44,728 nucleotides of DNA from the sequence record MZ997840.1. One strand, given 5' to 3'. Under the pieces are notes generated by a model, which saw only the letters and a list, made by a program, of their open reading frames with translations, made no database searches and had not been told where the DNA came from. This stretch comes from Escherichia phage ULINTec6. The position numbers and the translations under genes are program-made. Below, piece by piece: positions 291 through 32,807 of this stretch (position 1 is its first letter; every line of letters begins with the position of its first letter).

Positions 291-306
291 GTCTCACATG
301 TTAGAC
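291..306. repeat. Degenerate copy (GTCTCACATGTTAGAC) of the dispersed 16-bp palindrome
   Basis: 15/16 match to GTCTCACATGTGAGAC found six times elsewhere. Confidence 0.4.
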
Positions 307-1480: not shown

Positions 1481-1575
1481 TATGGATAGAAGCTTCTTAG
1501 TCTGGATAGGTTAAACCTAGGGTATTCTTTTGAGTACCCTATAATGTAACCTAACTAACTAATGAGGATTAAATC

Positions 1576-1905
1576 ATGGAACGCAATGCTAACGCTTACT
1601 ACAATCTTCTGGCTGCAACTGTTGAAGCATTCAACGAGCGCATCAAGTACGATGAGATTCGTGAAGACGATGATTACTCTGATGCACTGCATGAGGTTGT
1701 AGATAGCATGGTGCCAGTTTATTACAGCGAAATCTTTACTGTGATGGCTGCGGATGGTATTGATGTTGATTTTGAAGATGCTGGTTTGATTCCTGATACG
1801 AAGGATGTAACCAAGATTCTACAAGCTCGCATCTATGAAGCTCTTTATAATGATGTACCAAATGACAGCGATGTAGTTTGGTATGAAGGCGAAGAAGAGG
1901 AATAA
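1576..1905 (+). CDS. ocr: Ocr-like anti-restriction protein (T7 gene 0.3 homologue, DNA mimic)
   Basis: 109-aa highly acidic protein; blocks IKYDEIRED, VPVYYSEIFTVMAADGID, FEDAGLIPDTKDV and ILQARIYE closely match T7 Ocr as I recall it; acidic C-terminus. Confidence 0.8.
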   Translation: MERNANAYYNLLAATVEAFNERIKYDEIREDDDYSDALHEVVDSMVPVYYSEIFTVMAADGIDVDFEDAGLIPDTKDVTKILQARIYEALYNDVPNDSDVVWYEGEEEE

Positions 1906-2013
1906 TAAGATGGAAAGGCAATATAACTTCATATTTTCAGACGGTGTGACCTTAAAATGTTCCTTGCGATTTGCACAGATTCGTGAGGAAGTACTAGGAA
2001 CTACATACAAGCT

Positions 2014-2036
2014 ATTTAGCTGACACTATAAGAGAA
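2014..2036 (+). promoter_or_regulatory. Degenerate phage-promoter-like sequence (ATTTAGCTGACACTATAAGAG)
   Basis: Matches the phage promoter consensus except around the start site (TATAAG instead of TATAG); may be weak or non-functional. Confidence 0.3.
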
Positions 2037-2099
2037 GGCTTAACAAGGCGTTACTACGGTAGCGCCTGATTAAACTTTCATTTATTAGGAGTTGAGATT

Positions 2100-2285
2100 A
2101 TGAAAACCTTGATTGGATGCCTGTTGTTGTCTTCACTTGTCCTTGCTTTTGCTGCAAAGGCTGGCTATGACGCTTACAAGATAGAACAAGCTCAGCAAAA
2201 GTGGGCTGAGAAATACACCTTATGCAGTAAGAGTCATACTTATGAGTACTGCAATAAGGCATTAAAACACCTTTGGAGAGAGTAA
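2100..2285 (+). CDS. Small early protein with N-terminal hydrophobic signal/TM segment (61 aa)
   Basis: ORF track; N-terminus MKTLIGCLLLSSLVLAFAA is signal-peptide-like. Confidence 0.4.
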   Translation: MKTLIGCLLLSSLVLAFAAKAGYDAYKIEQAQQKWAEKYTLCSKSHTYEYCNKALKHLWRE

Positions 2286-2346
2286 CTAGCCTATAGCCTG
2301 CCTGTGTGGGCTATGTGATATTTACTTACACTATAAGGTGATTACT

Positions 2347-3231
2347 ATGACTACTGAAAACGTCCTCCTGTCTGTCCGCGAAGCTGCAACCGCTGAGATT
2401 AAGCAACATTTGGATAATATCGGCACTTCTTACATCAAAGTTGGCGCTTGTCTGAATGAATTACGCGGTGATTTCGAAGGTCAAAAAGACTTTTTAGCTT
2501 ATGTAGAATCAGAGTTCGGCATCAAGAAGGCACAATGCTACAAGCTGATGAGTGTAGCCCGTGTCTTTGAAGGAGACGAACGCTTTAAAGGTGTGGCTAT
2601 GCGTGTAATGCTGGCGCTTGTTCCTTTCGCTGATGAAAATATAATCATGGAGAAGGCCGCAGAACTCGCCGCAGATGGCAAGCTGGACACTAACGCCGTA
2701 AACGCTCTGATTGATCCTAAGAAAGAGACAAAGGCTGAGACGGTACAATCTAAGGCTGAGACAGTAAAACCGCAGGAGAACGCGACTGAGGCCGCAGAAT
2801 CACAGGAAATGCAAGCGCCGCAGGTAGTGCCACCCGCGAGCGAGCAGGAGGCCGACGAATCAGCACCGTGGGAAGAGGAAAGCAAGCCTGAAGCACCGAA
2901 GTCCGCGCCGCTGGATAACACGGCTAATACTGAGAATGCCGCTATTGCCGGTCTGCTGGCACAAATTAAGGCACTGACTGAGCAATTACAGGCAGCTAAT
3001 GACCGCATCGCCTCCTTAAGTAGCGCACGCGAAAGCAAGAAGGCAGCCGCGCCTATGCTGCCGCAATTCAAATCTTCCTGCTTCTATGCTCGCTTAGGTT
3101 TAAGCGCCGAGGAGGCAACGAAGAAAACAGCAGTTAACAAGGCACGCCGCGAACTGGTTAAGCTAGGCTATGGTGAAGGCCATGAAGCATGGGCCTTAAT
3201 ATCTGAGGCAGTAGAAGAATTAACTAAGTAA
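2347..3231 (+). CDS. Early hypothetical protein with globular N-terminal domain and low-complexity A/E/K/P/Q-rich C-terminal half
   Basis: ORF track (start adjusted to ATG 2347 after AAGGTG RBS); occupies the position of T7 gene 0.7 upstream of RNAP but shows no kinase motifs. Confidence 0.55.
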   Translation: MTTENVLLSVREAATAEIKQHLDNIGTSYIKVGACLNELRGDFEGQKDFLAYVESEFGIKKAQCYKLMSVARVFEGDERFKGVAMRVMLALVPFADENIIMEKAAELAADGKLDTNAVNALIDPKKETKAETVQSKAETVKPQENATEAAESQEMQAPQVVPPASEQEADESAPWEEESKPEAPKSAPLDNTANTENAAIAGLLAQIKALTEQLQAANDRIASLSSARESKKAAAPMLPQFKSSCFYARLGLSAEEATKKTAVNKARRELVKLGYGEGHEAWALISEAVEELTK

Positions 3232-3294
3232 CCTTATCGGTGGCATCTTCTTAGGTGTCACCTATTAAGGTTTCTTTCACTAGGAGTAAACAAG

Positions 3295-5922
3295 ATGCAA
3301 GACCTACACGCTATTCAACTTCAACTTGAAGAAGAAATGTTTAACGGCGGTATCCGTCGCTTTGAAGCGGACCAACAACGCCAGATTGCATCCGGTAATG
3401 AATCAGACACGGCATGGAATCGCCGCTTATTGTCCGAACTAATCGCACCTATGGCTGAAGGTATTCAGGCATACAAGGAAGAGTATGAAGGTAAAAGAGG
3501 CCGTGCACCGCGTGCATTGGCTTTCATTAACTGCGTAGAAAACGAAGTGGCAGCATATATCACGATGAAAATCGTTATGGATATGCTGAATACAGACGTT
3601 ACCTTACAAGCTATCGCTATGAATGTAGCGGACCGCATCGAGGACCAAGTACGTTTTAGCAAGCTGGAAGGTCACGCAGCTAAGTACTTTGAGAAAGTAA
3701 AGAAGTCACTTAAGGCGAGCAAGACGAAATCTTATCGTCATGCACACAACGTAGCGGTAGTGGCTGAGAAGTCTGTAGCTGACCGCGACGCGGATTTCTC
3801 CCGCTGGGAAGCATGGCCTAAAGATACCTTGCTGCAAATCGGTATGACCTTGCTCGAAATCTTGGAGAATAGCGTATTCTTCAATGGTCAACCTGTCTTC
3901 CTTCGTACCTTGCGCACTAACGGCGGCAAACATGGTATCTACTACTTACAGACTAGTGAGCACGTAGGCGAGTGGATTACAGCGTTCAAAGAGCACGTAG
4001 CACAACTAAGCCCAGCTTATGCACCTTGCGTTATCCCTCCGCGCCCTTGGGTGTCTCCTTTTAATGGTGGGTTTCACACTGAGAAGGTGGCTAGCCGCAT
4101 CCGCCTTGTTAAAGGCAACCGTGAGCACGTCCGTAAACTGACCAAAAAGCAGATGCCAGCAGTTTACAAGGCCGTTAACGCTTTGCAGGCGACTAAATGG
4201 CAGGTTAACAAGGAAGTATTGCAGGTGGTAGAGGACGTTATACGTCTCGACCTCGGCTATGGTGTACCTTCCTTTAAACCACTAATCGACCGCGAGAACA
4301 AACCGGCTAATCCCGTGCCGTTAGAATTTCAGCACCTTCGCGGACGTGAACTGAAAGAAATGCTTACGCCGGAACAGTGGCAATCCTTCATTAACTGGAA
4401 AGGTGAATGCACCAAGCTGTACACCGCAGAAACTAAGCGTGGCAGCAAGTCGGCGGCTACGGTCCGCATGGTTGGTCAGGCCCGTAAATATAGCCAGTTC
4501 GACGCAATCTACTTCGTGTATGCACTGGACAGCCGCAGCCGCGTCTACGCGCAATCTAGCACTCTCTCACCGCAATCAAACGACTTAGGCAAGGCACTCC
4601 TACGGTTTACCGAAGGGCAGCCGCTAAATAGCGCTGAGGCGCTTAAGTGGTTTTTGGTGAACGGAGCTAATAACTGGGGTTGGGATAAGAAAACTTTCGA
4701 CGTGCGCACCGCTAACGTGCTGGACGGCGAGTTTCAAGACATGTGCCGCGACATTGCAGCGGATCCTCTGACCTTCACTCAATGGGTAAATGCCGATTCC
4801 CCTTATGGCTTCCTTGCATGGTGCTTTGAATATGCGCGTTATCTGGATGCACTGGATGAAGGCACGCAAGACCAATTCATGACGCACCTCCCAGTCCATC
4901 AAGATGGTAGTTGTTCTGGTATCCAGCACTACAGTGCTATGCTACGCGATGCAGTAGGTGCGAAAGCAGTAAACCTTAAGCCCTCTGACTCCCCTCAAGA
5001 TATTTATGGTGCCGTTGCGCAGGTAGTAATTCAGAAGAATTATGCATACATGAATGCAGAGGATGCGGAAACCTTCACTTCTGGCAGCGTGACTTTAACA
5101 GGTGCGGAACTGCGTAGCATGGCTAGTGCGTGGGATATGATAGGAATCACTCGCGGCCTGACCAAAAAGCCCGTAATGACACTACCTTACGGCAGCACAC
5201 GTCTAACCTGCCGTGAGTCAGTGATTGATTATATCGTTGATTTAGAAGAAAAAGAGGCCCAACGGGCTATTGCGGAAGGGCGTACCGCCAACCCTGTACA
5301 TCCTTTTGATAATGACCGTAAGGACAGCCTGACACCTAGCGCAGCTTATAACTATATGACAGCTCTAATCTGGCCTTCTATCTCGGAAGTGGTTAAAGCT
5401 CCTATAGTGGCAATGAAAATGATTCGTCAGCTTGCACGTTTCGCAGCTAAAAGAAACGAAGGCTTAGAATATCCCTTACCAACTGGCTTCATCTTGCAAC
5501 AAAAGATAATGGCTACCGATATGCTCCGCGTATCCACTTGCTTGATGGGTGAAATCAAGATGAGTCTCCAGATTGAAACAGATGTAGTTGATGAAACGGC
5601 AATGATGGGTGCGGCTGCTCCTAACTTCGTCCACGGTCACGATGCTAGCCACCTGATTCTGACTGTATGTGACCTAGTGGATAAAGGTATTACATCCATT
5701 GCAGTCATCCATGATTCTTTCGGTACTCATGCAGGGCGTACCGCAGACCTGCGGGATAGCTTAAGGGGAGAAATGGTTAAGATGTATCAAAACCATAATG
5801 CCCTGCAAAACCTGCTAGATGTGCACGAAGAGCGTTGGTTAGTAGACACCGGAATCCAAGTACCAAAGCAAGGGGAGTTTGACCTTAACGAAATCTTAGT
5901 TTCAGACTATTGTTTCGCATAA
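3295..5922 (+). CDS. Phage single-subunit DNA-dependent RNA polymerase (T7 gene 1 family)
   Basis: 875 aa; C-terminus ...[12 protein letters not shown] matches T7 RNAP ...LRDILESDFAFA; [18 protein letters not shown] and IHDSFGTH catalytic motifs present. Confidence 0.97.
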
Positions 5923-5930
5923 TATTAATA

Positions 5931-5965
5931 GGCCATTCCTTCGGGAGTGGCCTTTCCTTTTACCT
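5931..5965 (+). terminator. Intrinsic terminator after the RNAP gene (9-bp stem, UUCG loop, U-rich tail)
   Basis: ggccattcc-ttcg-ggagtggcc followed by tttccttttacc, immediately after the RNAP stop; analogous to the T7 early terminator. Confidence 0.65.
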
Positions 5966-5995
5966 ACTACCTGTAACATTTCATTAACATAAAGT

Positions 5996-6011
5996 GTCTC
6001 ACATGTGAGAC
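5996..6011. repeat. 16-bp perfect palindrome GTCTCACATGTGAGAC (copy 1), immediately upstream of a phage promoter
   Basis: Read directly; one of six near-identical dispersed copies. Confidence 0.8.
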
Positions 6012-6013
6012 TT

Positions 6014-6036
6014 ATTTACCGGACACTATAGGATAG
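6014..6036 (+). promoter_or_regulatory. Phage RNAP promoter (ATTTACCGGACACTATAGGA)
   Basis: Match to the SP6-type consensus GACACTATAG with upstream ATTTAC. Confidence 0.75.
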
Positions 6037-6186
6037 CCGTCGGAGACGGGAAAGAAAGGGAAGATAAAGGATATAAAGGAAGTAATAGGTATTAAAGGTT
6101 ATATAGGTTATCTAGGAATACCTAGGAATACCTATTACCTTCTTCCTTCCTCTTATTACCACTTAGAGGAAGGGCAGACCTAGGTT
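6034..6186. other. Candidate primary origin of replication (purine-rich/AT-rich segment with inverted and direct repeats between two phage promoters)
   Basis: ggaaagaaagggaagataaagg purine tract, inverted repeat gaagtaataggta ... tacctattaccttc, direct repeat aggaatacct x2; sits between RNAP and gene 1.1 as the T7 primary origin does. Confidence 0.45.
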
Positions 6187-6202
6187 GTCTCACATGTGAG
6201 AC
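6187..6202. repeat. 16-bp palindrome GTCTCACATGTGAGAC (copy 2)
   Basis: Read directly; again followed by a promoter-like sequence. Confidence 0.8.
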
Positions 6203-6207
6203 TTCGT

Positions 6208-6230
6208 ATTTACCGGACAGTATAGATAAG
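6208..6230 (+). promoter_or_regulatory. Phage promoter variant (ATTTACCGGACAGTATAGATAAG)
   Basis: One substitution in the core (GACAGTATAG); precedes the gene 1.1-like ORF. Confidence 0.5.
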
Positions 6231-6403: not shown

Positions 6404-7557
6404 ATGGCTATTATTAATAACATCCCATGTCCTCAATGTCAGAAGAATGGACACGATAAATCAGGCAACCACCTTATGATATTCGAGGATGGTGCTGGGT
6501 ACTGTAACCGTGGTCACTTCCATGATAATGGCAGACCTTACTACCATAAGCCTGAAGGGGGCATCGAGATAACCGAGTTGCCTATTACTGGCAATATCAA
6601 ATATACACCTTCCCAGTTTAAAGAGATGGAGAAGGAAGGGAAGATTAGCGACCCTAAGCTACGCGCCATCGCACTTGGTGGTATGCGTATGAAAGACCGT
6701 TGGGAGGTTATGAATGAGCAAGAAAGGGCAGACCAAGAAACAGAGTGGAAACTTGATGTTGAATGGTTCCTCACGCTTAAGCGTAAGAATCTTGTTTCCC
6801 GACACATTCGCGGCGACATTTGCGCATTGTATGATGTACGGGTCGGACACGATGAAGAAGGTAGAGTCTCACGGCATTACTATCCACGCTTCGAAAAAGG
6901 TGAGCTAGTAGGCGCTAAGTGTCGCACATTACCTAAAGACTTTAAGTTTGGTCATTTAGGTAAACTATTTGGTATGCAAGATCTTTTCGGTATGAATACT
7001 TTGTCTCACGTGTTAGACAAGGGAAGACGAAAGGATTGCTTGCTTATTGTCGGCGGCGAACTGGATGCACTAGCAGCACAGCAAATGCTCCTTGATTCTG
7101 CCAAGGGTACTAAGTGGGAAGGCCAGCCTTACCATGTATGGTCTGTCAATAAAGGTGAGTCTTGCCTTGAAGAGATAGTACAGAACCGTGAACACATCGC
7201 CCAATTTAAGAAGATTATATGGGGTTTTGATGGAGATGAGGTAGGGCAGAAGCAGAATCAGCAAGCGGCTCGCCTGTTTCCTGGCAAATCCTATATCCTT
7301 GAGTACCCTTCTGGTTGCAAAGATGCCAACAAGGCATTGATGGCTGGCAAGGCTAAAGAGTTTGTTGATGCATGGTTTAATGCCAAGTCATCTGATGAAG
7401 TCTTTGGTAGCCAGATTAAATCTATCGCATCTCAAAGGGATAAGCTCAAGGCTGCACGTCCAGAGCAAGGACTATCATGGCCTTGGCCTAAGCTGAACAA
7501 GGTAACGCTAGGTATTCGTAAGAACCAACTTATCATTGTAGGCGCAGGCTCTGGCGT
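6404..7557 (+). CDS. Primase-helicase (T7 gene 4 family), exon 1: zinc-ribbon, TOPRIM primase and start of the helicase P-loop (GAGSGV)
   Basis: IPCPQCQKNGHDKSGNHL...YCNRGHFH zinc ribbon and LLIVGGELDALA / FDGDEVGQ / CKDANKALM TOPRIM motifs match T7 gp4; the reading frame hits a stop 7 codons after GAGSGV. Confidence 0.85.
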
Positions 7558-8344
7558 TAACATTAGCGCCGCCATGTAGTAATACATGGGCAATAATCGT
7601 GTGAACTCAGGGGAAGACTAGAACAGTTAATCCTGAGCCAAGCTAGGCACACCTCAAATTCAAAGGAGGTGTTATGCAATTTAAAGAAGTACCAGATCAC
7701 AGTAATTATATTTGTTATGAGAATGGCACGGTTGTTAATCGTAAGACTGGAAAGGTCTTGAAAGAAGATACAACTAACCGAGGTTATAAGCGGATTACAG
7801 TAAGCAAGGGCAACAAGGTAACACGTTGGAGTGTGCACCGTTTAGTTGCTTTACTGTTTATCCCTAACCCTCATAATTATGAAACTGTTAATCACATATC
7901 GGGAGATAAGACGGATAACTCTGTTAGTAATCTTGAGTGGATGAGCCAAGAACAGAACCAAGCCCATGCTAAATATACAGGACTGTGTCCTAAAGGTGAG
8001 GCTGTTGGCACTAATAAGTTCAAAGAGGCAACTATTCAGCAAGTGTGCAAGCTAATAGAGAAAGGTTTATCTCGCGGTGAAATTATGAAAGCAACGAGCA
8101 TCTCTAAAGCAACCTTTGATGACATTCGTAGAAGGAAGACTTGGAAGCACGTATCTTGTTCATATAAATGGTGACAATCTGGTGTGCCTAGAAGGTGCAA
8201 CGACTATCCCGAAAGGGAGTACAGCCAAGCGGCTGGAAGCGCACGACACCCATCGTGGGTGATGATATAGTCTGGTCTATATGGGGACATATAGCAGTTC
8301 ATAAGAGAACGGGCGTGGCTTAGCGAACCACGTCGAACATAACG
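7558..8344 (+). mobile_element. Putative self-splicing group I intron (787 nt) interrupting the helicase Walker A motif, with an HNH homing endonuclease ORF in the P6 loop
   Basis: Exon end GGCGU 7553-7557 pairs with GCGCC 7566-7570 (P1, U-G at splice site); P-like CTCAGG 7606-7611 pairs with Q-like AATCCTGAG 7629-7637; R-like GTGCAACGACTATC 8195-8208 and S-like GATGATATAGTCTGG 8261-8275 form P7 (GACTA/TAGTC); intron ends with G 8344; splicing restores GAGSGVGKTEF. Confidence 0.75.
7674..8174 (+). CDS. Intron-encoded HNH homing endonuclease (166 aa)
   Basis: HNH motif VHRLVALLFIPNP...VNHISGDKTDNSVSNLEWMSQEQN; own RBS AAAGGAGGTG; C-terminal helix-turn-helix-like region. Confidence 0.85.
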   Translation: MQFKEVPDHSNYICYENGTVVNRKTGKVLKEDTTNRGYKRITVSKGNKVTRWSVHRLVALLFIPNPHNYETVNHISGDKTDNSVSNLEWMSQEQNQAHAKYTGLCPKGEAVGTNKFKEATIQQVCKLIEKGLSRGEIMKATSISKATFDDIRRRKTWKHVSCSYKW

Positions 8345-9170
8345 AGGTAAGACTGAGTTCCTCCGCGAAGTGGTTAAACACCTCATTGAAGAGCACGGTG
8401 AATCTGTAGGCATCATTTCTACAGAAGACCCGATGGTCAAGGTGTCCCGTGCTTTTATCGGTAAGTGGATTGATAAGCGCATTGAGTTACCGCCAACCAA
8501 TGACCCGAAAGAAGACGGATACCGTGAGGTGTTCGACTACACCGAGGAAGAAGCTAACGCTGCCATTGATTATGTGGCTGATACAGGAAAGCTATTTGTG
8601 GCCGACCTAGAAGGCGACTATTCTATGGAGAAGGTAGAGCAAACTTGCCTAGAGTTTGAGGCTATGGGCATTTCTAATATCATCATTGATAACTTAACGG
8701 GGATTAAATTAGATGAGCGTGCTTTTGGTGGGAAGGTTGGTGCACTTGATGAATGCGTCAAACGAATTGGTACTATCAAAGACCGACATGCGGTTACGAT
8801 TTTCCTTGTCTCTCACCTTACACGTCCTCCGGCAAACCGTACCCAACACGAAGAAGGTGGCGAAGTTATCCTTTCTGACTTCCGAGGCTCAGGCGCTATC
8901 GGATTCTGGGCATCTTACGCCTTGGGGATTGAGCGTAATACAAGAGCTGAAACGCTTGATGAAAGGACTACCACGTACATCTCGTGTGTCAAAGACCGCG
9001 ATCAAGGTGTGTGGACTGGCACTAAAGTGAAACTTAAAGGGGATATGACCACAGGTAGGTTATTGGAATGGGAAGATCGTGTTTCTAGATTTGACACAGG
9101 TATACCTAAGGAGCAAAGTGTACCTGATGAAAACACAGGAGAGTTGAATGAAGAAACTTCAGAGTTTTGA
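8345..9170 (+). CDS. Primase-helicase exon 2: remainder of the helicase domain, beginning (A)GKTEFLREV...
   Basis: In-frame upstream extension of the 8370 ORF reads GKTEFLREVVKHL, the second half of the Walker A motif; DnaB-family blocks LVSHLTRP and ILSDFRGSGAIGF match T7 gp4 helicase; no canonical start codon of its own. Confidence 0.8.
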
Positions 9171-9639
9171 GGAAGCAGGATATGTCGTCAAGGAAGACGG
9201 CACGATCTTAAACCCAAAGGGTTTAGTCAGAAAACCATCCTTCGCAGGTAAGAATGTTAAATACTATGTAGTATCTTGGAGGGATAAACATTCTAAGAAA
9301 ACAATCATAGATTTAGTTCACAGATTGGTTGCTAAGAAGTACATACCTAATCCACATGGTTTACCAGAAGTTCATCATAAAGACTTTAATCCTCTTAATT
9401 GTCATAAGGATAATTTGGAATGGACAGATGGGAAAACCAATTGTGAGTATAGTTATTCCAGGGTAGAGGCTGCGCTTGCACGAAGTGCTACCTTACTCTC
9501 ACCTGATGGGGTTAAGCATGAGGTATTTAATGTTCGTAAGTTCTGCCGTGAACATAGCCTCAATCCACCTAGCATATTTGAAGTGCTTAGTGGTAAGCGT
9601 AAATCACACAAAGGATGGACTATTTACCGGACACTATAG
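9148..9639 (+). CDS. Free-standing HNH homing endonuclease (163 aa)
   Basis: HNH motif VHRLVAKKYIPNP...VHHKDFNPLNCHKDNLEW; GGAGAG RBS; overlaps the helicase stop; the last codons are encoded by the phage promoter at 9622-9644. Confidence 0.8.
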   Translation: MKKLQSFEEAGYVVKEDGTILNPKGLVRKPSFAGKNVKYYVVSWRDKHSKKTIIDLVHRLVAKKYIPNPHGLPEVHHKDFNPLNCHKDNLEWTDGKTNCEYSYSRVEAALARSATLLSPDGVKHEVFNVRKFCREHSLNPPSIFEVLSGKRKSHKGWTIYRTL

Positions 9640-9834: not shown

Positions 9835-9850
9835 GTCTCACATGTGAGAC
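9835..9850. repeat. 16-bp palindrome GTCTCACATGTGAGAC (copy 3), extended stem gcttgtctcaca/tgtgagacaggc, followed by TCTTATT
   Basis: Read directly; hairpin plus U-rich tail is terminator-like. Confidence 0.8.
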
Positions 9851-11050: not shown

Positions 11051-11066
11051 GTCTCACGTGTGAGAC
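11051..11066. repeat. Palindrome variant GTCTCACGTGTGAGAC (copy 4), extended stem ggttgtctcac/gtgagacagcc, followed by TTTCATCAT
   Basis: Read directly. Confidence 0.7.
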
Positions 11067-16198: not shown

Positions 16199-16214
16199 GT
16201 CTCACACGTGAGAC
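16199..16214. repeat. Palindrome variant GTCTCACACGTGAGAC (copy 5), just upstream of a phage promoter
   Basis: Read directly. Confidence 0.7.
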
Positions 16215-16229
16215 AACTAGGTGTCCGGT

Positions 16230-16252
16230 ATTTACTGGACACTATAGAAGAG
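16230..16252 (+). promoter_or_regulatory. Phage RNAP promoter (ATTTACTGGACACTATAGAAGAG)
   Basis: Full consensus match. Confidence 0.8.
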
Positions 16253-32791: not shown

Positions 32792-32807
32792 GTCTCACAT
32801 GTGAGAC
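32792..32807. repeat. 16-bp palindrome GTCTCACATGTGAGAC (copy 6), extended stem, followed by TCTTTAT
   Basis: Read directly; between two internal virion protein genes. Confidence 0.8.

What the first reader, a model, noticed from the sequence alone, without database searches (positions are those of the whole stretch)
2347..3231. 297-aa early protein with low-complexity C-terminal half at the position of the T7 gene 0.7 kinase
The gene directly upstream of RNAP encodes a protein with a compact N-terminal domain and a long A/E/K/P/Q-rich segment with coiled-coil-like stretches, and no protein kinase motifs. Its position and timing suggest a host-shutoff or transcription-modulating function different from T7 gp0.7.
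Basis: inference. Interest (0 to 1): 0.45.

Follow-up and report, generated by a model that had tools for sequence, protein, structure and literature searches.

The report
Phage DNA-binding protein with dispersed operators
The uncharacterised early gene just upstream of the RNA polymerase gene in this K1-5/SP6-like phage most likely encodes a sequence-specific DNA-binding protein that recognises a 16-bp palindrome scattered through the phage's own genome, not a kinase substitute.

Summary
The window is a Vectrevirus (K1-5/K1E-like) genome. The ORF is real and is the homologue of K1-5 gene 6, annotated hypothetical. It starts at ATG 2347 and is 294 aa, not 297.

It has four parts:
- a 68-aa acidic disordered linker;
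- a coiled coil;
- an invariant LPQF motif followed by a J-domain homologue that has lost the HPD motif.

Homologues occur in 213 Autographiviridae genomes, always near the RNA polymerase gene. None were found in bacterial genomes.

Following the fold lead, I found that every phage carrying this gene also carries 5-11 copies of a palindrome. In the window it is GTCTCACATGTGAGAC, with 8 sites against 0.18 expected and 7 of 8 intergenic, several abutting promoters.

The palindrome's half-site co-varies with the predicted recognition helix. K66 goes with CAC and N/H66 with AAC across at least three independent switches, and other helix variants go with other half-sites. T7 has neither the gene nor the palindrome.

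Best reading: a KorB-like operator-binding regulator of phage transcription units.

Caveats: some sites also form RNA-only hairpins, one RNA polymerase residue co-varies too, and nothing has been tested biochemically.

The parts
2347..3231 (+). Gene 6 homologue (294 aa plus stop). SD AAGGTGA at 2334-2340.
   Evidence: PHROG 4571 (unknown function), E 4.8e-131.
2347..2718 (+). N-terminal all-helical domain (res 1-124) with the DUF3102 / KorB-ParB-type HTH DNA-binding fold.
2482..2568 (+). Predicted helix-turn-helix (res 46-74). Recognition helix is res 60-74 (KKAQCYKLMSVARVF). The specificity residue K66 is codon 2542-2544.
   Evidence: Secondary structure. Positions 63-66 are the variable face across 132 cluster representatives. 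Residue 66 is the only gp6 column perfectly associated with the palindrome class while staying conserved within each class.
2719..2922 (+). Disordered acidic A/E/K/P/Q-rich linker (res 125-192).
   Evidence: pLDDT <50. Composition. Not conserved in sequence.
2854..2877 (+). Short linear motif DESAPWEE (acidic-P[FW]-acidic) inside the linker.
   Evidence: Present in 26/88 cluster representatives against 1% of shuffled linkers. Visible in alignments.
2923..3042 (+). Coiled-coil-like helix (res 193-232), the presumed dimerisation element.
   Evidence: AF2 helix 193-230. Heptad-like conservation with L210 invariant.
3055..3069 (+). Invariant MLPQF motif (res 237-241) immediately before the J-like domain.
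3076..3228 (+). C-terminal J-domain homologue (helices I-III) lacking HPD. G-Y-G (3166-3174) sits at the HPD position. Basic helix II is KKTAVNKARRELVKL.
   Evidence: Family profile against the PDB hits more than 25 J domains (best 4.1e-5). Pfam DnaJ in distant homologues: P0178 1e-5, P0180 8e-5. P0281 keeps IHHPDK. Foldseek 6jmg J domain at prob 0.91.
291..306 (.). Palindrome copy (GTCTCACATGTTAGAC, 1 mismatch), about 25 bp upstream of sigma70-like early promoters (330-402).
   Evidence: Syntenic copies in K1-5, SP6, PM116, phiEa100 and VEN.
5996..6011 (.). Perfect palindrome GTCTCACATGTGAGAC, ending 2 bp before the phage promoter at 6014.
6187..6202 (.). Perfect palindrome, 5 bp before the promoter-like site at 6208.
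7003..7018 (.). Palindrome copy (2 mismatches) inside the primase gene, conserved in K1-5 and SP6.
9835..9850 (.). Perfect palindrome, intergenic, embedded in a 13-bp stem that needs G.U pairs (+ strand RNA -19.7 kcal/mol).
11051..11066 (.). Palindrome copy (1 mismatch, still symmetric), intergenic before the DNA polymerase gene, with an extended RNA-type stem.
16199..16214 (.). Palindrome copy (1 mismatch, symmetric), 15 bp before the phage promoter at 16230.
32792..32807 (.). Perfect palindrome, intergenic between two internal-virion-protein genes, with an extended RNA-type stem.

Best explanation
Gene 6 encodes a modular early protein. Two copies, held together by the coiled coil, place their KorB/ParB-type helix-turn-helix domains on the two half-sites of a 16-bp palindrome (GTCTCAC-AT-GTGAGAC). 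That palindrome is scattered at eight conserved, mostly intergenic places in the phage's own genome: upstream of the early host-type promoters, directly upstream of the first phage promoters behind the RNAP gene and of the promoter at 16.2 kb, and at several gene boundaries. Bound there, the protein acts like plasmid KorB, as a global, operator-bound regulator or roadblock of transcription units. The long acidic linker and the HPD-less J-like C-terminal domain serve as tethered partner-binding modules for a partner that is still unknown (RNAP or DnaK-type chaperone).

Shown computationally: the domain folds and homologies, the existence and non-randomness of the palindromes, and their co-variation with the recognition helix.

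Inferred: physical binding, dimerisation, the regulatory outcome and the partner.
For: - Palindrome: 8 sites against 0.18 expected. 7 of 8 are intergenic, and three lie 2-15 bp upstream of phage promoters.
- The same kind of palindrome sits at syntenic positions in K1-5, SP6, PM116, phiEa100 and VEN. It was found in about 45 of 50 loci that carry a homologue.
- T7, which lacks the gene, has no over-represented palindrome.
- Co-variation between helix and half-site: Q..YK with GTCTCAC; Q..Y(N/H) with GTC(C/T)AAC; Q.SK with GTTTCAC; W.YR with GTCTAGT; Y.YR with GTCTACA.
- On a tree built without the helix, the K/N switch occurs at least 3 times independently with no discordance.
- Residue 66 is the only column of gp6 with perfect association plus within-class conservation (MI 1.0, residual entropy 0.18). 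In about 2,330 control columns of RNAP, primase and DNAP, 6 are perfect, all with residual entropy >=0.87.
- Out-of-sample: metagenome locus L081 has a K66 helix and two perfect GTCTCAC sites.
- Inside the 7+7 core, G.U-type asymmetries are not enriched over A.C-type (25 vs 15, p 0.15), as expected for a DNA-level palindrome.
- Variable spacers (2 or 3 bp, sometimes within one genome) fit DNA-binding domains dimerised through a distant, flexible tether.
Against: - There is no binding experiment, and the co-variation is confounded by shared ancestry. The null rate of perfectly associated columns is about 0.26%.
- The + strand RNA fold of the sites is systematically more stable than the - strand fold (-9.7 vs -7.5 kcal/mol, 40 vs 13 of 55 sites, p 3e-5). 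Three window sites have 13-bp stems that need G.U pairs, so at least some copies are selected as RNA hairpins.
- A few loci lack a clear repeated palindrome, for example L062.
- The window protein itself has no Pfam hit.
- The regulatory direction and the role of the J-like domain are guesses.
Confidence: 0.5

Rival explanations
1. The palindromes are purely RNA elements (RNase III processing sites, 3'-end stabilising hairpins, or pause/termination signals for the phage RNAP), as is assumed for dispersed palindromes in T7-like phages. Gene 6 has nothing to do with them. Its HTH binds something else, and the helix/half-site co-variation is phylogenetic coincidence.
For: Strand asymmetry of folding energy and G.U-dependent extended stems. 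Sites often lie at gene ends or just before ribosome-binding sites. One such site is annotated as a terminator in PM116. T7-like Vibrio phage palindromes resemble T7 RNase III sites (PMC11707656). RNAP residue 143, near the segment equivalent to T7 E148, co-varies too.
Against: The 7-nt half-site sequence is conserved between E. coli, Erwinia, Pseudomonas and Vibrio phages, where a hairpin alone would drift. The core shows no G.U bias. The sites directly upstream of promoters have no extended stem. Changes in half-site always coincide with changes on the recognition helix of a KorB-fold HTH. No Rfam family matches.
Confidence: 0.2
2. Gene 6 is a host-directed take-over factor. The J-like domain and the acidic P[FW] motif capture host proteins (DnaK, RNAP, or SSB-client-type proteins), and the HTH merely anchors the protein on DNA non-specifically or on host sites.
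For: Early position next to RNAP, in place of T7 gp0.7. The J-domain ancestry includes one relative that still carries HPD. Basic helix II is retained. The linker motif is enriched 30-fold over shuffles.
Against: The HPD motif is absent (GYG), and the loop is not conserved across the wider family, so canonical DnaK activation is unlikely. The specificity-type variation on the recognition helix, matched by phage-genome palindromes, argues for phage targets. No similarity to any known host-shutoff protein or defence/anti-defence model.
Confidence: 0.15
3. Gene 6 binds the palindromes but works in DNA replication or genome organisation rather than transcription. In this reading it is an origin-marking or ParB-like condensing protein. 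Two sites bracket a promoter plus AT/purine-rich segment behind the RNAP gene, which resembles the T7 primary origin. A J-like domain recalls chaperone-assisted initiator remodelling in lambda and plasmids.
For: Layout of 5996-6210 compared with T7 phi1.1A/B. ParB/KorB fold. Dispersed sites along the genome.
Against: There is no CTPase/ParB N-domain and no ParA partner. Most sites are far from the putative origin. The function of T7-type origins needs no initiator protein (established knowledge of T7). No direct evidence either way.
Confidence: 0.15

Closest known systems
KorB of IncP plasmids RK2/RP4 (ParB family global repressor)
   Different: Only 12-13% identity. gp6 has no N-terminal ParB/Srx CTPase domain. 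Its C-terminus is a coiled coil plus J-like domain instead of KorB's own dimerisation domain. There is no KorA/IncC partner. The host replicon is a strictly lytic phage. Binding is not demonstrated.
DUF3102 (Pfam PF11300) proteins of phages, prophages and plasmids
   Same: Same fold (BFVD hits at prob 1.0). Weak but recurrent sequence matches in homologues. One homologue has a precomputed PF11300 hit, and UniRef names two Vibrio phage homologues DUF3102.
   Different: The window protein is below detection for the Pfam model. DUF3102 itself has no described function. The fusion to a J-like domain is specific to this Autographiviridae family.
J-domain co-chaperones (DnaJ, CbpA, DjlA; phage RB43 Rki)
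   Same: The C-terminal ~50 aa align to J-domain helices I-III. Like CbpA, gp6 combines a DNA-binding part with a J-type module.
   Different: HPD is replaced by GYG, there is no helix IV, and the loop is variable across the family. Stimulation of the DnaK ATPase is therefore not expected.
T7 gp0.7 (protein kinase / host transcription shut-off)
   Same: Genome position immediately upstream of the RNAP gene, with presumed early expression.
   Different: No sequence similarity (E 4.9), no kinase domain, and a different architecture.
RNase III processing hairpins of T7-like phages
   Same: Dispersed intergenic inverted repeats at gene boundaries. Some copies fold better as + strand RNA.
   Different: The core is short, perfect and sequence-conserved across genera, and it co-varies with a protein helix. 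Several copies lie upstream of promoters, where they would not be in the downstream transcript.

Membership tests
T7 gp0.7-type protein kinase | Protein kinase catalytic domain / sequence similarity to gp0.7 | tested here: not met
   No Pfam kinase hit at E<=1. BLASTP against T7 gp0.7 gives E 4.9.
DUF3102 (PF11300) | Score above the Pfam gathering threshold (24.4 bits) | tested here: not met
   The window protein has no hit. Homologues reach at most 20.6 bits. One homologue (P0288) carries a precomputed PF11300 hit.
DUF3102 (PF11300) | Shared three-dimensional fold of the helical domain | tested here: met
   Foldseek against BFVD finds several 'DUF3102 domain-containing' phage proteins at prob 1.0 with TM 0.65-0.74.
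ParB/KorB family | HTH DNA-binding domain of the ParB/KorB type | tested here: met
ParB/KorB family | N-terminal ParB/Srx-like CTP-binding domain | tested here: not met
   The protein starts directly with the helical DNA-binding domain. No ParBc hit in Pfam or NCBIfam.
ParB/KorB family | Cognate palindromic sites on the same replicon | tested here: inconclusive
   Palindromes exist and co-vary with the recognition helix. Binding is not shown, and an RNA-hairpin reading is not excluded.
J-domain proteins | J-domain helical hairpin (helices II-III with helix I) | tested here: met
   The family profile hits more than 25 solved J domains. Pfam DnaJ in distant members. Foldseek 6jmg at prob 0.91.
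J-domain proteins | His-Pro-Asp motif between helices II and III | tested here: not met
   The window has KLGYGEGHE. Only one distant relative (P0281) keeps HHPDK.
J-domain proteins | Stimulation of Hsp70 (DnaK) ATPase | not testable with these tools
   Requires biochemistry.

The most novel reading that the evidence does not exclude
SP6/K1-5-like and many marine or plant-pathogen Autographiviridae run a plasmid-KorB-style operator network. One early protein reads a lineage-specific palindrome code at fixed genome positions and, through its HPD-less J-like domain and linker motif, gates the phage's own RNA polymerase (whose residue 143 co-varies) and/or engages host DnaK. This would replace the gp0.7/gp2/lysozyme control layer of T7. 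The recognition code (K66 with CAC, N66 with AAC, and so on) would be reprogrammable.
Probability: 0.2. Interest if true: 0.85.

Novelty: new variant of a known kind. Interest (0 to 1): 0.62.

Why it matters
SP6, K1-5 and K1E are classic and therapeutically used phages, yet this conserved early gene has never been assigned a function. Database names for its homologues ('andolysin', 'VLTF-4', 'endolysin') are spurious.

If the inference holds, it does three things. It identifies the regulator and the cis-elements of a control layer that distinguishes the SP6 supergroup from T7. It explains a conserved set of palindromes. It offers a simple, swappable protein-DNA recognition pair for synthetic biology alongside SP6 RNAP.

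It also gives DUF3102, a widespread domain of unknown function, its first concrete functional hypothesis: KorB-like operator binding. Every step can be tested with a gel shift and one point mutant.

Tried and rejected
- Kinase or any enzyme: no Pfam, NCBIfam or PADLOC match, and no similarity to T7 gp0.7.
- Whole-protein Foldseek against the PDB was uninformative because of the multi-domain, low-pTM model. Only the J domain surfaced.
- The AFDB50 library was unavailable.
- Literature: nothing on DUF3102 function, on K1-5 gp6, or on the palindrome sequence. The original SP6 genome paper was not held in the library, and the companion SP6/K1-5 genome paper was not looked up. Either could have mentioned the palindromes.
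- The search for related loci with the 110-sequence alignment failed because it was too divergent.
- The metagenome scan returned mostly contigs too short to hold sites.
- SSB-tail mimicry by the acidic P[FW] motif and clamp-binding by LPQF were considered from memory only and dropped for lack of any test.
- A simple one-residue/one-base code (K/R reads G) was rejected. R66 lineages have A at position 5 when residue 63 is W or Y.
- The idea that RNAP rather than gp6 reads the palindrome was examined. RNAP residue 143 correlates but is variable within the CAC class and discordant for the AGT class.

Full report
**Identity of the window and the gene.** The window is a complete-length Vectrevirus genome (Autographiviridae, Molineuxvirinae). 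It is 92-95% identical at the DNA level to mutPK1A2, K1-5 and K1E over 1500-6000. The finding is the homologue of K1-5 gene 6 and mutPK1A2 p08, both annotated 'hypothetical protein' as 885-nt CDSs. It lies directly upstream of the 875-aa single-subunit RNA polymerase gene at 3295-5922. The mechanical ORF starts at GTG 2338 and gives 297 aa. That GTG sits inside the Shine-Dalgarno AAGGTGA that serves ATG 2347, so the product is 294 aa. PHROGs places it in family 4571, function unknown (E 4.8e-131). Pfam, NCBIfam and PADLOC give nothing for the window protein. It shows no similarity to T7 gp0.7 (E 4.9).

**Anatomy.** An alignment of diverse homologues and AlphaFold models give four parts.
- Residues 1-124 form a six-helix domain (domain-only model pLDDT 87.9, pTM 0.73). 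It contains a helix-turn-helix at helices 46-57 and 61-74.
- Residues 125-192 are disordered (pLDDT <50), acidic and A/E/K/P/Q-rich (E21 A16 P12 K10 Q9 %, net charge -9), and not conserved in sequence. The exception is a short acidic-P[FW]-acidic motif (DESAPWEE in the window). It occurs in 26 of 88 cluster representatives against 1% of shuffled linkers.
- Residues 193-230 form one long heptad-like helix.
- An invariant (M)LPQF at 237-241 precedes a small domain at 245-294 with pLDDT about 90.

**The C-terminal module is a degenerate J domain.**
- A profile of 110 family members hits more than 25 solved J domains and nothing else consistent (best 2ys8 at 4.1e-5; E. coli DnaJ at 0.01).
- Distant family members score on Pfam DnaJ close to threshold (P0178 at 1e-5 and 26.0 bits against a 27.8-bit cut-off; P0180 at 8e-5).
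- One distant member with the same architecture keeps a canonical IHHPDK and hits DnaJ and DjlA models.
- Foldseek's only high-probability hit for the full model is a J domain (6jmg, prob 0.91).

In the window the HPD position reads G-Y-G, and across the wider family this loop is not conserved. The module therefore descends from a J domain but fails that family's defining motif.

**The N-terminal module is a KorB/ParB-type DNA-binding domain of the DUF3102 kind.**
- Against predicted viral structures, the hits are phage 'DUF3102 domain-containing' proteins at probability 1.0.
- Sequence support is weak but recurrent. PF11300 hits occur in 17 of 29 homologues (best 5.7e-4, all below the gathering score) and in five of ten long homologues. 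One homologue has a precomputed PF11300 hit.
- There is no ParB N-terminal CTPase domain.
- DUF3102 has no described function in the searchable literature.

**Distribution.**
- tblastn finds one full-length copy in each of 213 phage records. All are 43-48 kb Autographiviridae of Escherichia, Salmonella, Klebsiella, Proteus, Erwinia, Pectobacterium, Pseudomonas syringae, Vibrio, Aeromonas, Shewanella, Ralstonia, Marinomonas and Edwardsiella.
- An exhaustive search of 1.84 billion representatives finds 132 clusters. Many are 320-510 aa with an extra, variable helical N-terminal extension.
- Where context is available, the gene sits zero to three small genes upstream of the RNAP gene.
- No relative was detected in one genome each of 185,579 bacterial and archaeal species.

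**Following the fold lead: a palindrome network.** KorB and ParB bind palindromes, so I looked for candidate sites. The perfect 16-mer GTCTCACATGTGAGAC occurs four times in the window, and eight times at up to two mismatches, against 0.18 expected.
- Seven of the eight sites are intergenic.
- The site at 5996 ends 2 bp before the phage promoter at 6014.
- The site at 6187 ends 5 bp before a promoter-like site at 6208.
- The site at 16199 ends 15 bp before the promoter at 16230.
- The site at 291 lies about 25 bp upstream of the sigma70-like early promoters.

The same kind of element sits at syntenic places in K1-5, SP6, Proteus phage PM116, Erwinia phage phiEa100 and Vibrio phage VEN. In about 45 of 50 homologue-bearing loci examined, it is the top-ranking repeated inverted repeat. 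T7 lacks the gene and has no over-represented palindrome. Rfam has no matching family.

**Co-variation.** The half-site differs between lineages, and it changes together with residues 63-66 of the predicted recognition helix (window K60-K-A-Q-C-Y-K-L-M68).

| Helix (residues 63-66) | Half-site | Lineages |
|---|---|---|
| Q-x-Y-K | GTCTCAC | Vectrevirus, Erwinia, Vibrio, Pseudomonas, long-type L069 |
| Q-x-Y-N/H, F-N or S-V-Y-N | GTC(C/T)AAC | SP6, L025-31, L033/35, PM116, long-type L059-61, L008 |
| Q-A-S-K | GTTTCAC | L039, L041 |
| W-A-Y-R | GTCTAGT | L050, L051 |
| Y-V-Y-R | GTCTACA | L073-75 |

- Across the 132 cluster representatives, exactly these helix positions vary while the flanking K61, L67 and M68 are conserved.
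- I built a neighbour-joining tree from gp6 with the helix masked. The K/CAC Vectrevirus clade is nested inside an N/AAC clade whose sister (Erwinia) is K/CAC. Among the long forms, K/CAC L069 is sister to N/AAC L059-61. The S65/TTTCAC pair is nested in a Y-K clade. That gives at least three independent K/N switches plus three other specificity changes, with no discordant locus.
- K1-5 still carries one GTCCAAC site among its GTCTCAC sites, as expected after a recent switch.
- In an unbiased scan of all gp6 columns, residue 66 is the only one with perfect association and near-invariance within each class (normalised MI 1.0, residual entropy 0.18).
- A metagenomic locus not used to derive the rule (L081, helix ..QAYK..) has two perfect GTCTCAC-NN-GTGAGAC sites.

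**Controls and caveats.**
- The same scan on RNAP, primase and DNA polymerase finds 1/862, 1/647 and 4/825 perfectly associated columns, all with residual entropy of at least 0.87. Ancestry alone therefore yields perfect columns at about 0.26%, and the gp6 result is strong mainly because it falls on the recognition helix and is clean.
- One control column is intriguing. RNAP residue 143 lies in a basic patch next to the segment equivalent to T7 E148. It is R in all AAC and ACA lineages, K in Vectrevirus, and N/S/A elsewhere.
- The sites fold better as + strand RNA than as - strand RNA (mean -9.7 vs -7.5 kcal/mol; 40 vs 13 of 55 sites; p 3e-5). This is because three to four copies per genome sit in extended stems that need G.U pairs (window 9835, 11051 and 32792).
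- Within the 7+7 core there is no such bias (25 G.U-type vs 15 A.C-type asymmetries, p 0.15).
- The promoter-proximal copies have no extended stem.

I therefore think a DNA operator and, at some positions, an RNA hairpin are superimposed. The pure-RNA reading remains a live rival. It is the usual interpretation of palindromes in T7-like phages (PMC11707656).

**Mechanism proposed.** gp6 is made early. It dimerises through the coiled coil, and its two tethered HTH domains bind the two half-sites. The long flexible tether would explain why 2-bp and 3-bp spacers both occur, even within one genome. From the operators it modulates transcription:
- autoregulation or shut-down of the early host-RNAP promoters (site 291);
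- gating of the first phage promoters behind the RNAP gene and of the promoter at 16.2 kb;
- possibly roadblocks at gene boundaries.

This is how KorB works on IncP plasmids (established knowledge), but here without the CTPase clamp domain. The J-like domain and the linker motif presumably hold a partner. Which partner is unknown. Binding, dimerisation, regulatory sign and partner are all inferences. A replication or genome-organisation role is an alternative downstream function, because the two post-RNAP sites bracket a T7-origin-like promoter plus AT-rich segment.

**Verdict.** The thing is a new variant of a known kind, a KorB/ParB-fold operator-binding protein fused to a degenerate J domain in lytic phages. 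It comes with a concrete, cheaply testable recognition code.

Noticed in passing
window 3721-3723 (RNAP residue 143): One residue in a basic patch of the phage RNA polymerase ([14 protein letters not shown]) also tracks the palindrome class. It is R in all GTCyAAC and GTCTACA lineages, K in Vectrevirus, N/S/A in other GTCTCAC lineages, and N in GTCTAGT lineages. This may be chance or a three-way link.
   Followed up: partly
window 6404-9639: The primase/helicase gene is split. The primase part is 6404-7579, an HNH-type homing-endonuclease-like ORF is 7674-8174, the helicase part is 8370-9170, and a second HNH-like ORF is 9148-9639. K1-5 has one uninterrupted gene.
   Followed up: no
window 2014-2034: A phage-promoter-like sequence (ATTTAGCTGACACTATAAGAG, 5 mismatches from the genome's consensus) lies upstream of genes 5 and 6 and the RNAP gene. 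It would allow the phage polymerase to transcribe its own gene.
   Followed up: no
window 5996-6210: Between the two post-RNAP palindromes lie a promoter, a purine/AT-rich repeat-containing stretch and a second promoter-like site. The layout is reminiscent of the T7 primary replication origin (phi1.1A/B).
   Followed up: no
window 9835-9850, 11051-11066, 32792-32807: These palindrome copies are embedded in 13-bp stems that rely on G.U pairs. They are stable only as + strand RNA (-18 to -20 kcal/mol against -10 to -12 for the other strand), which suggests an added RNA-level role.
   Followed up: partly
window 2292-2315 and 5930-5953: A terminator-like hairpin lies between gene 5 and gene 6. A strong GC hairpin with a T-run lies right after the RNAP gene and is the likely early terminator.
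   Followed up: no
window 2100-2285: The small gene 5 product starts with a signal-peptide-like segment (MKTLIGCLLLSSLVLAFAAKA), which is unusual for an early gene.
   Followed up: no
L009 (K1-5) 9571-9586: K1-5 keeps one GTCCAACGTGTTGGAC site among its GTCTCAC-type sites, at the position where the window has GTCTCACGTGTGAGAC. It looks like a relic of a specificity switch.
   Followed up: partly
public records of homologues (for example KY295891, KY295893, OQ818708, vB_EcolP_P433.1): Homologues of this protein are annotated as 'andolysin', 'endolysin', 'late transcription factor VLTF-4' or 'periplasmatic protein'. None of these names is supported by any search here.
   Followed up: partly
L062 (IMGVR_UViG_3300014508_000001): A homologue-bearing contig (helix FNIKKSQAFRLMRI) shows no repeated palindrome in 20.7 kb. 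Instead it has a word, GCATAAGCAGCA, repeated about 12 times.
   Followed up: no
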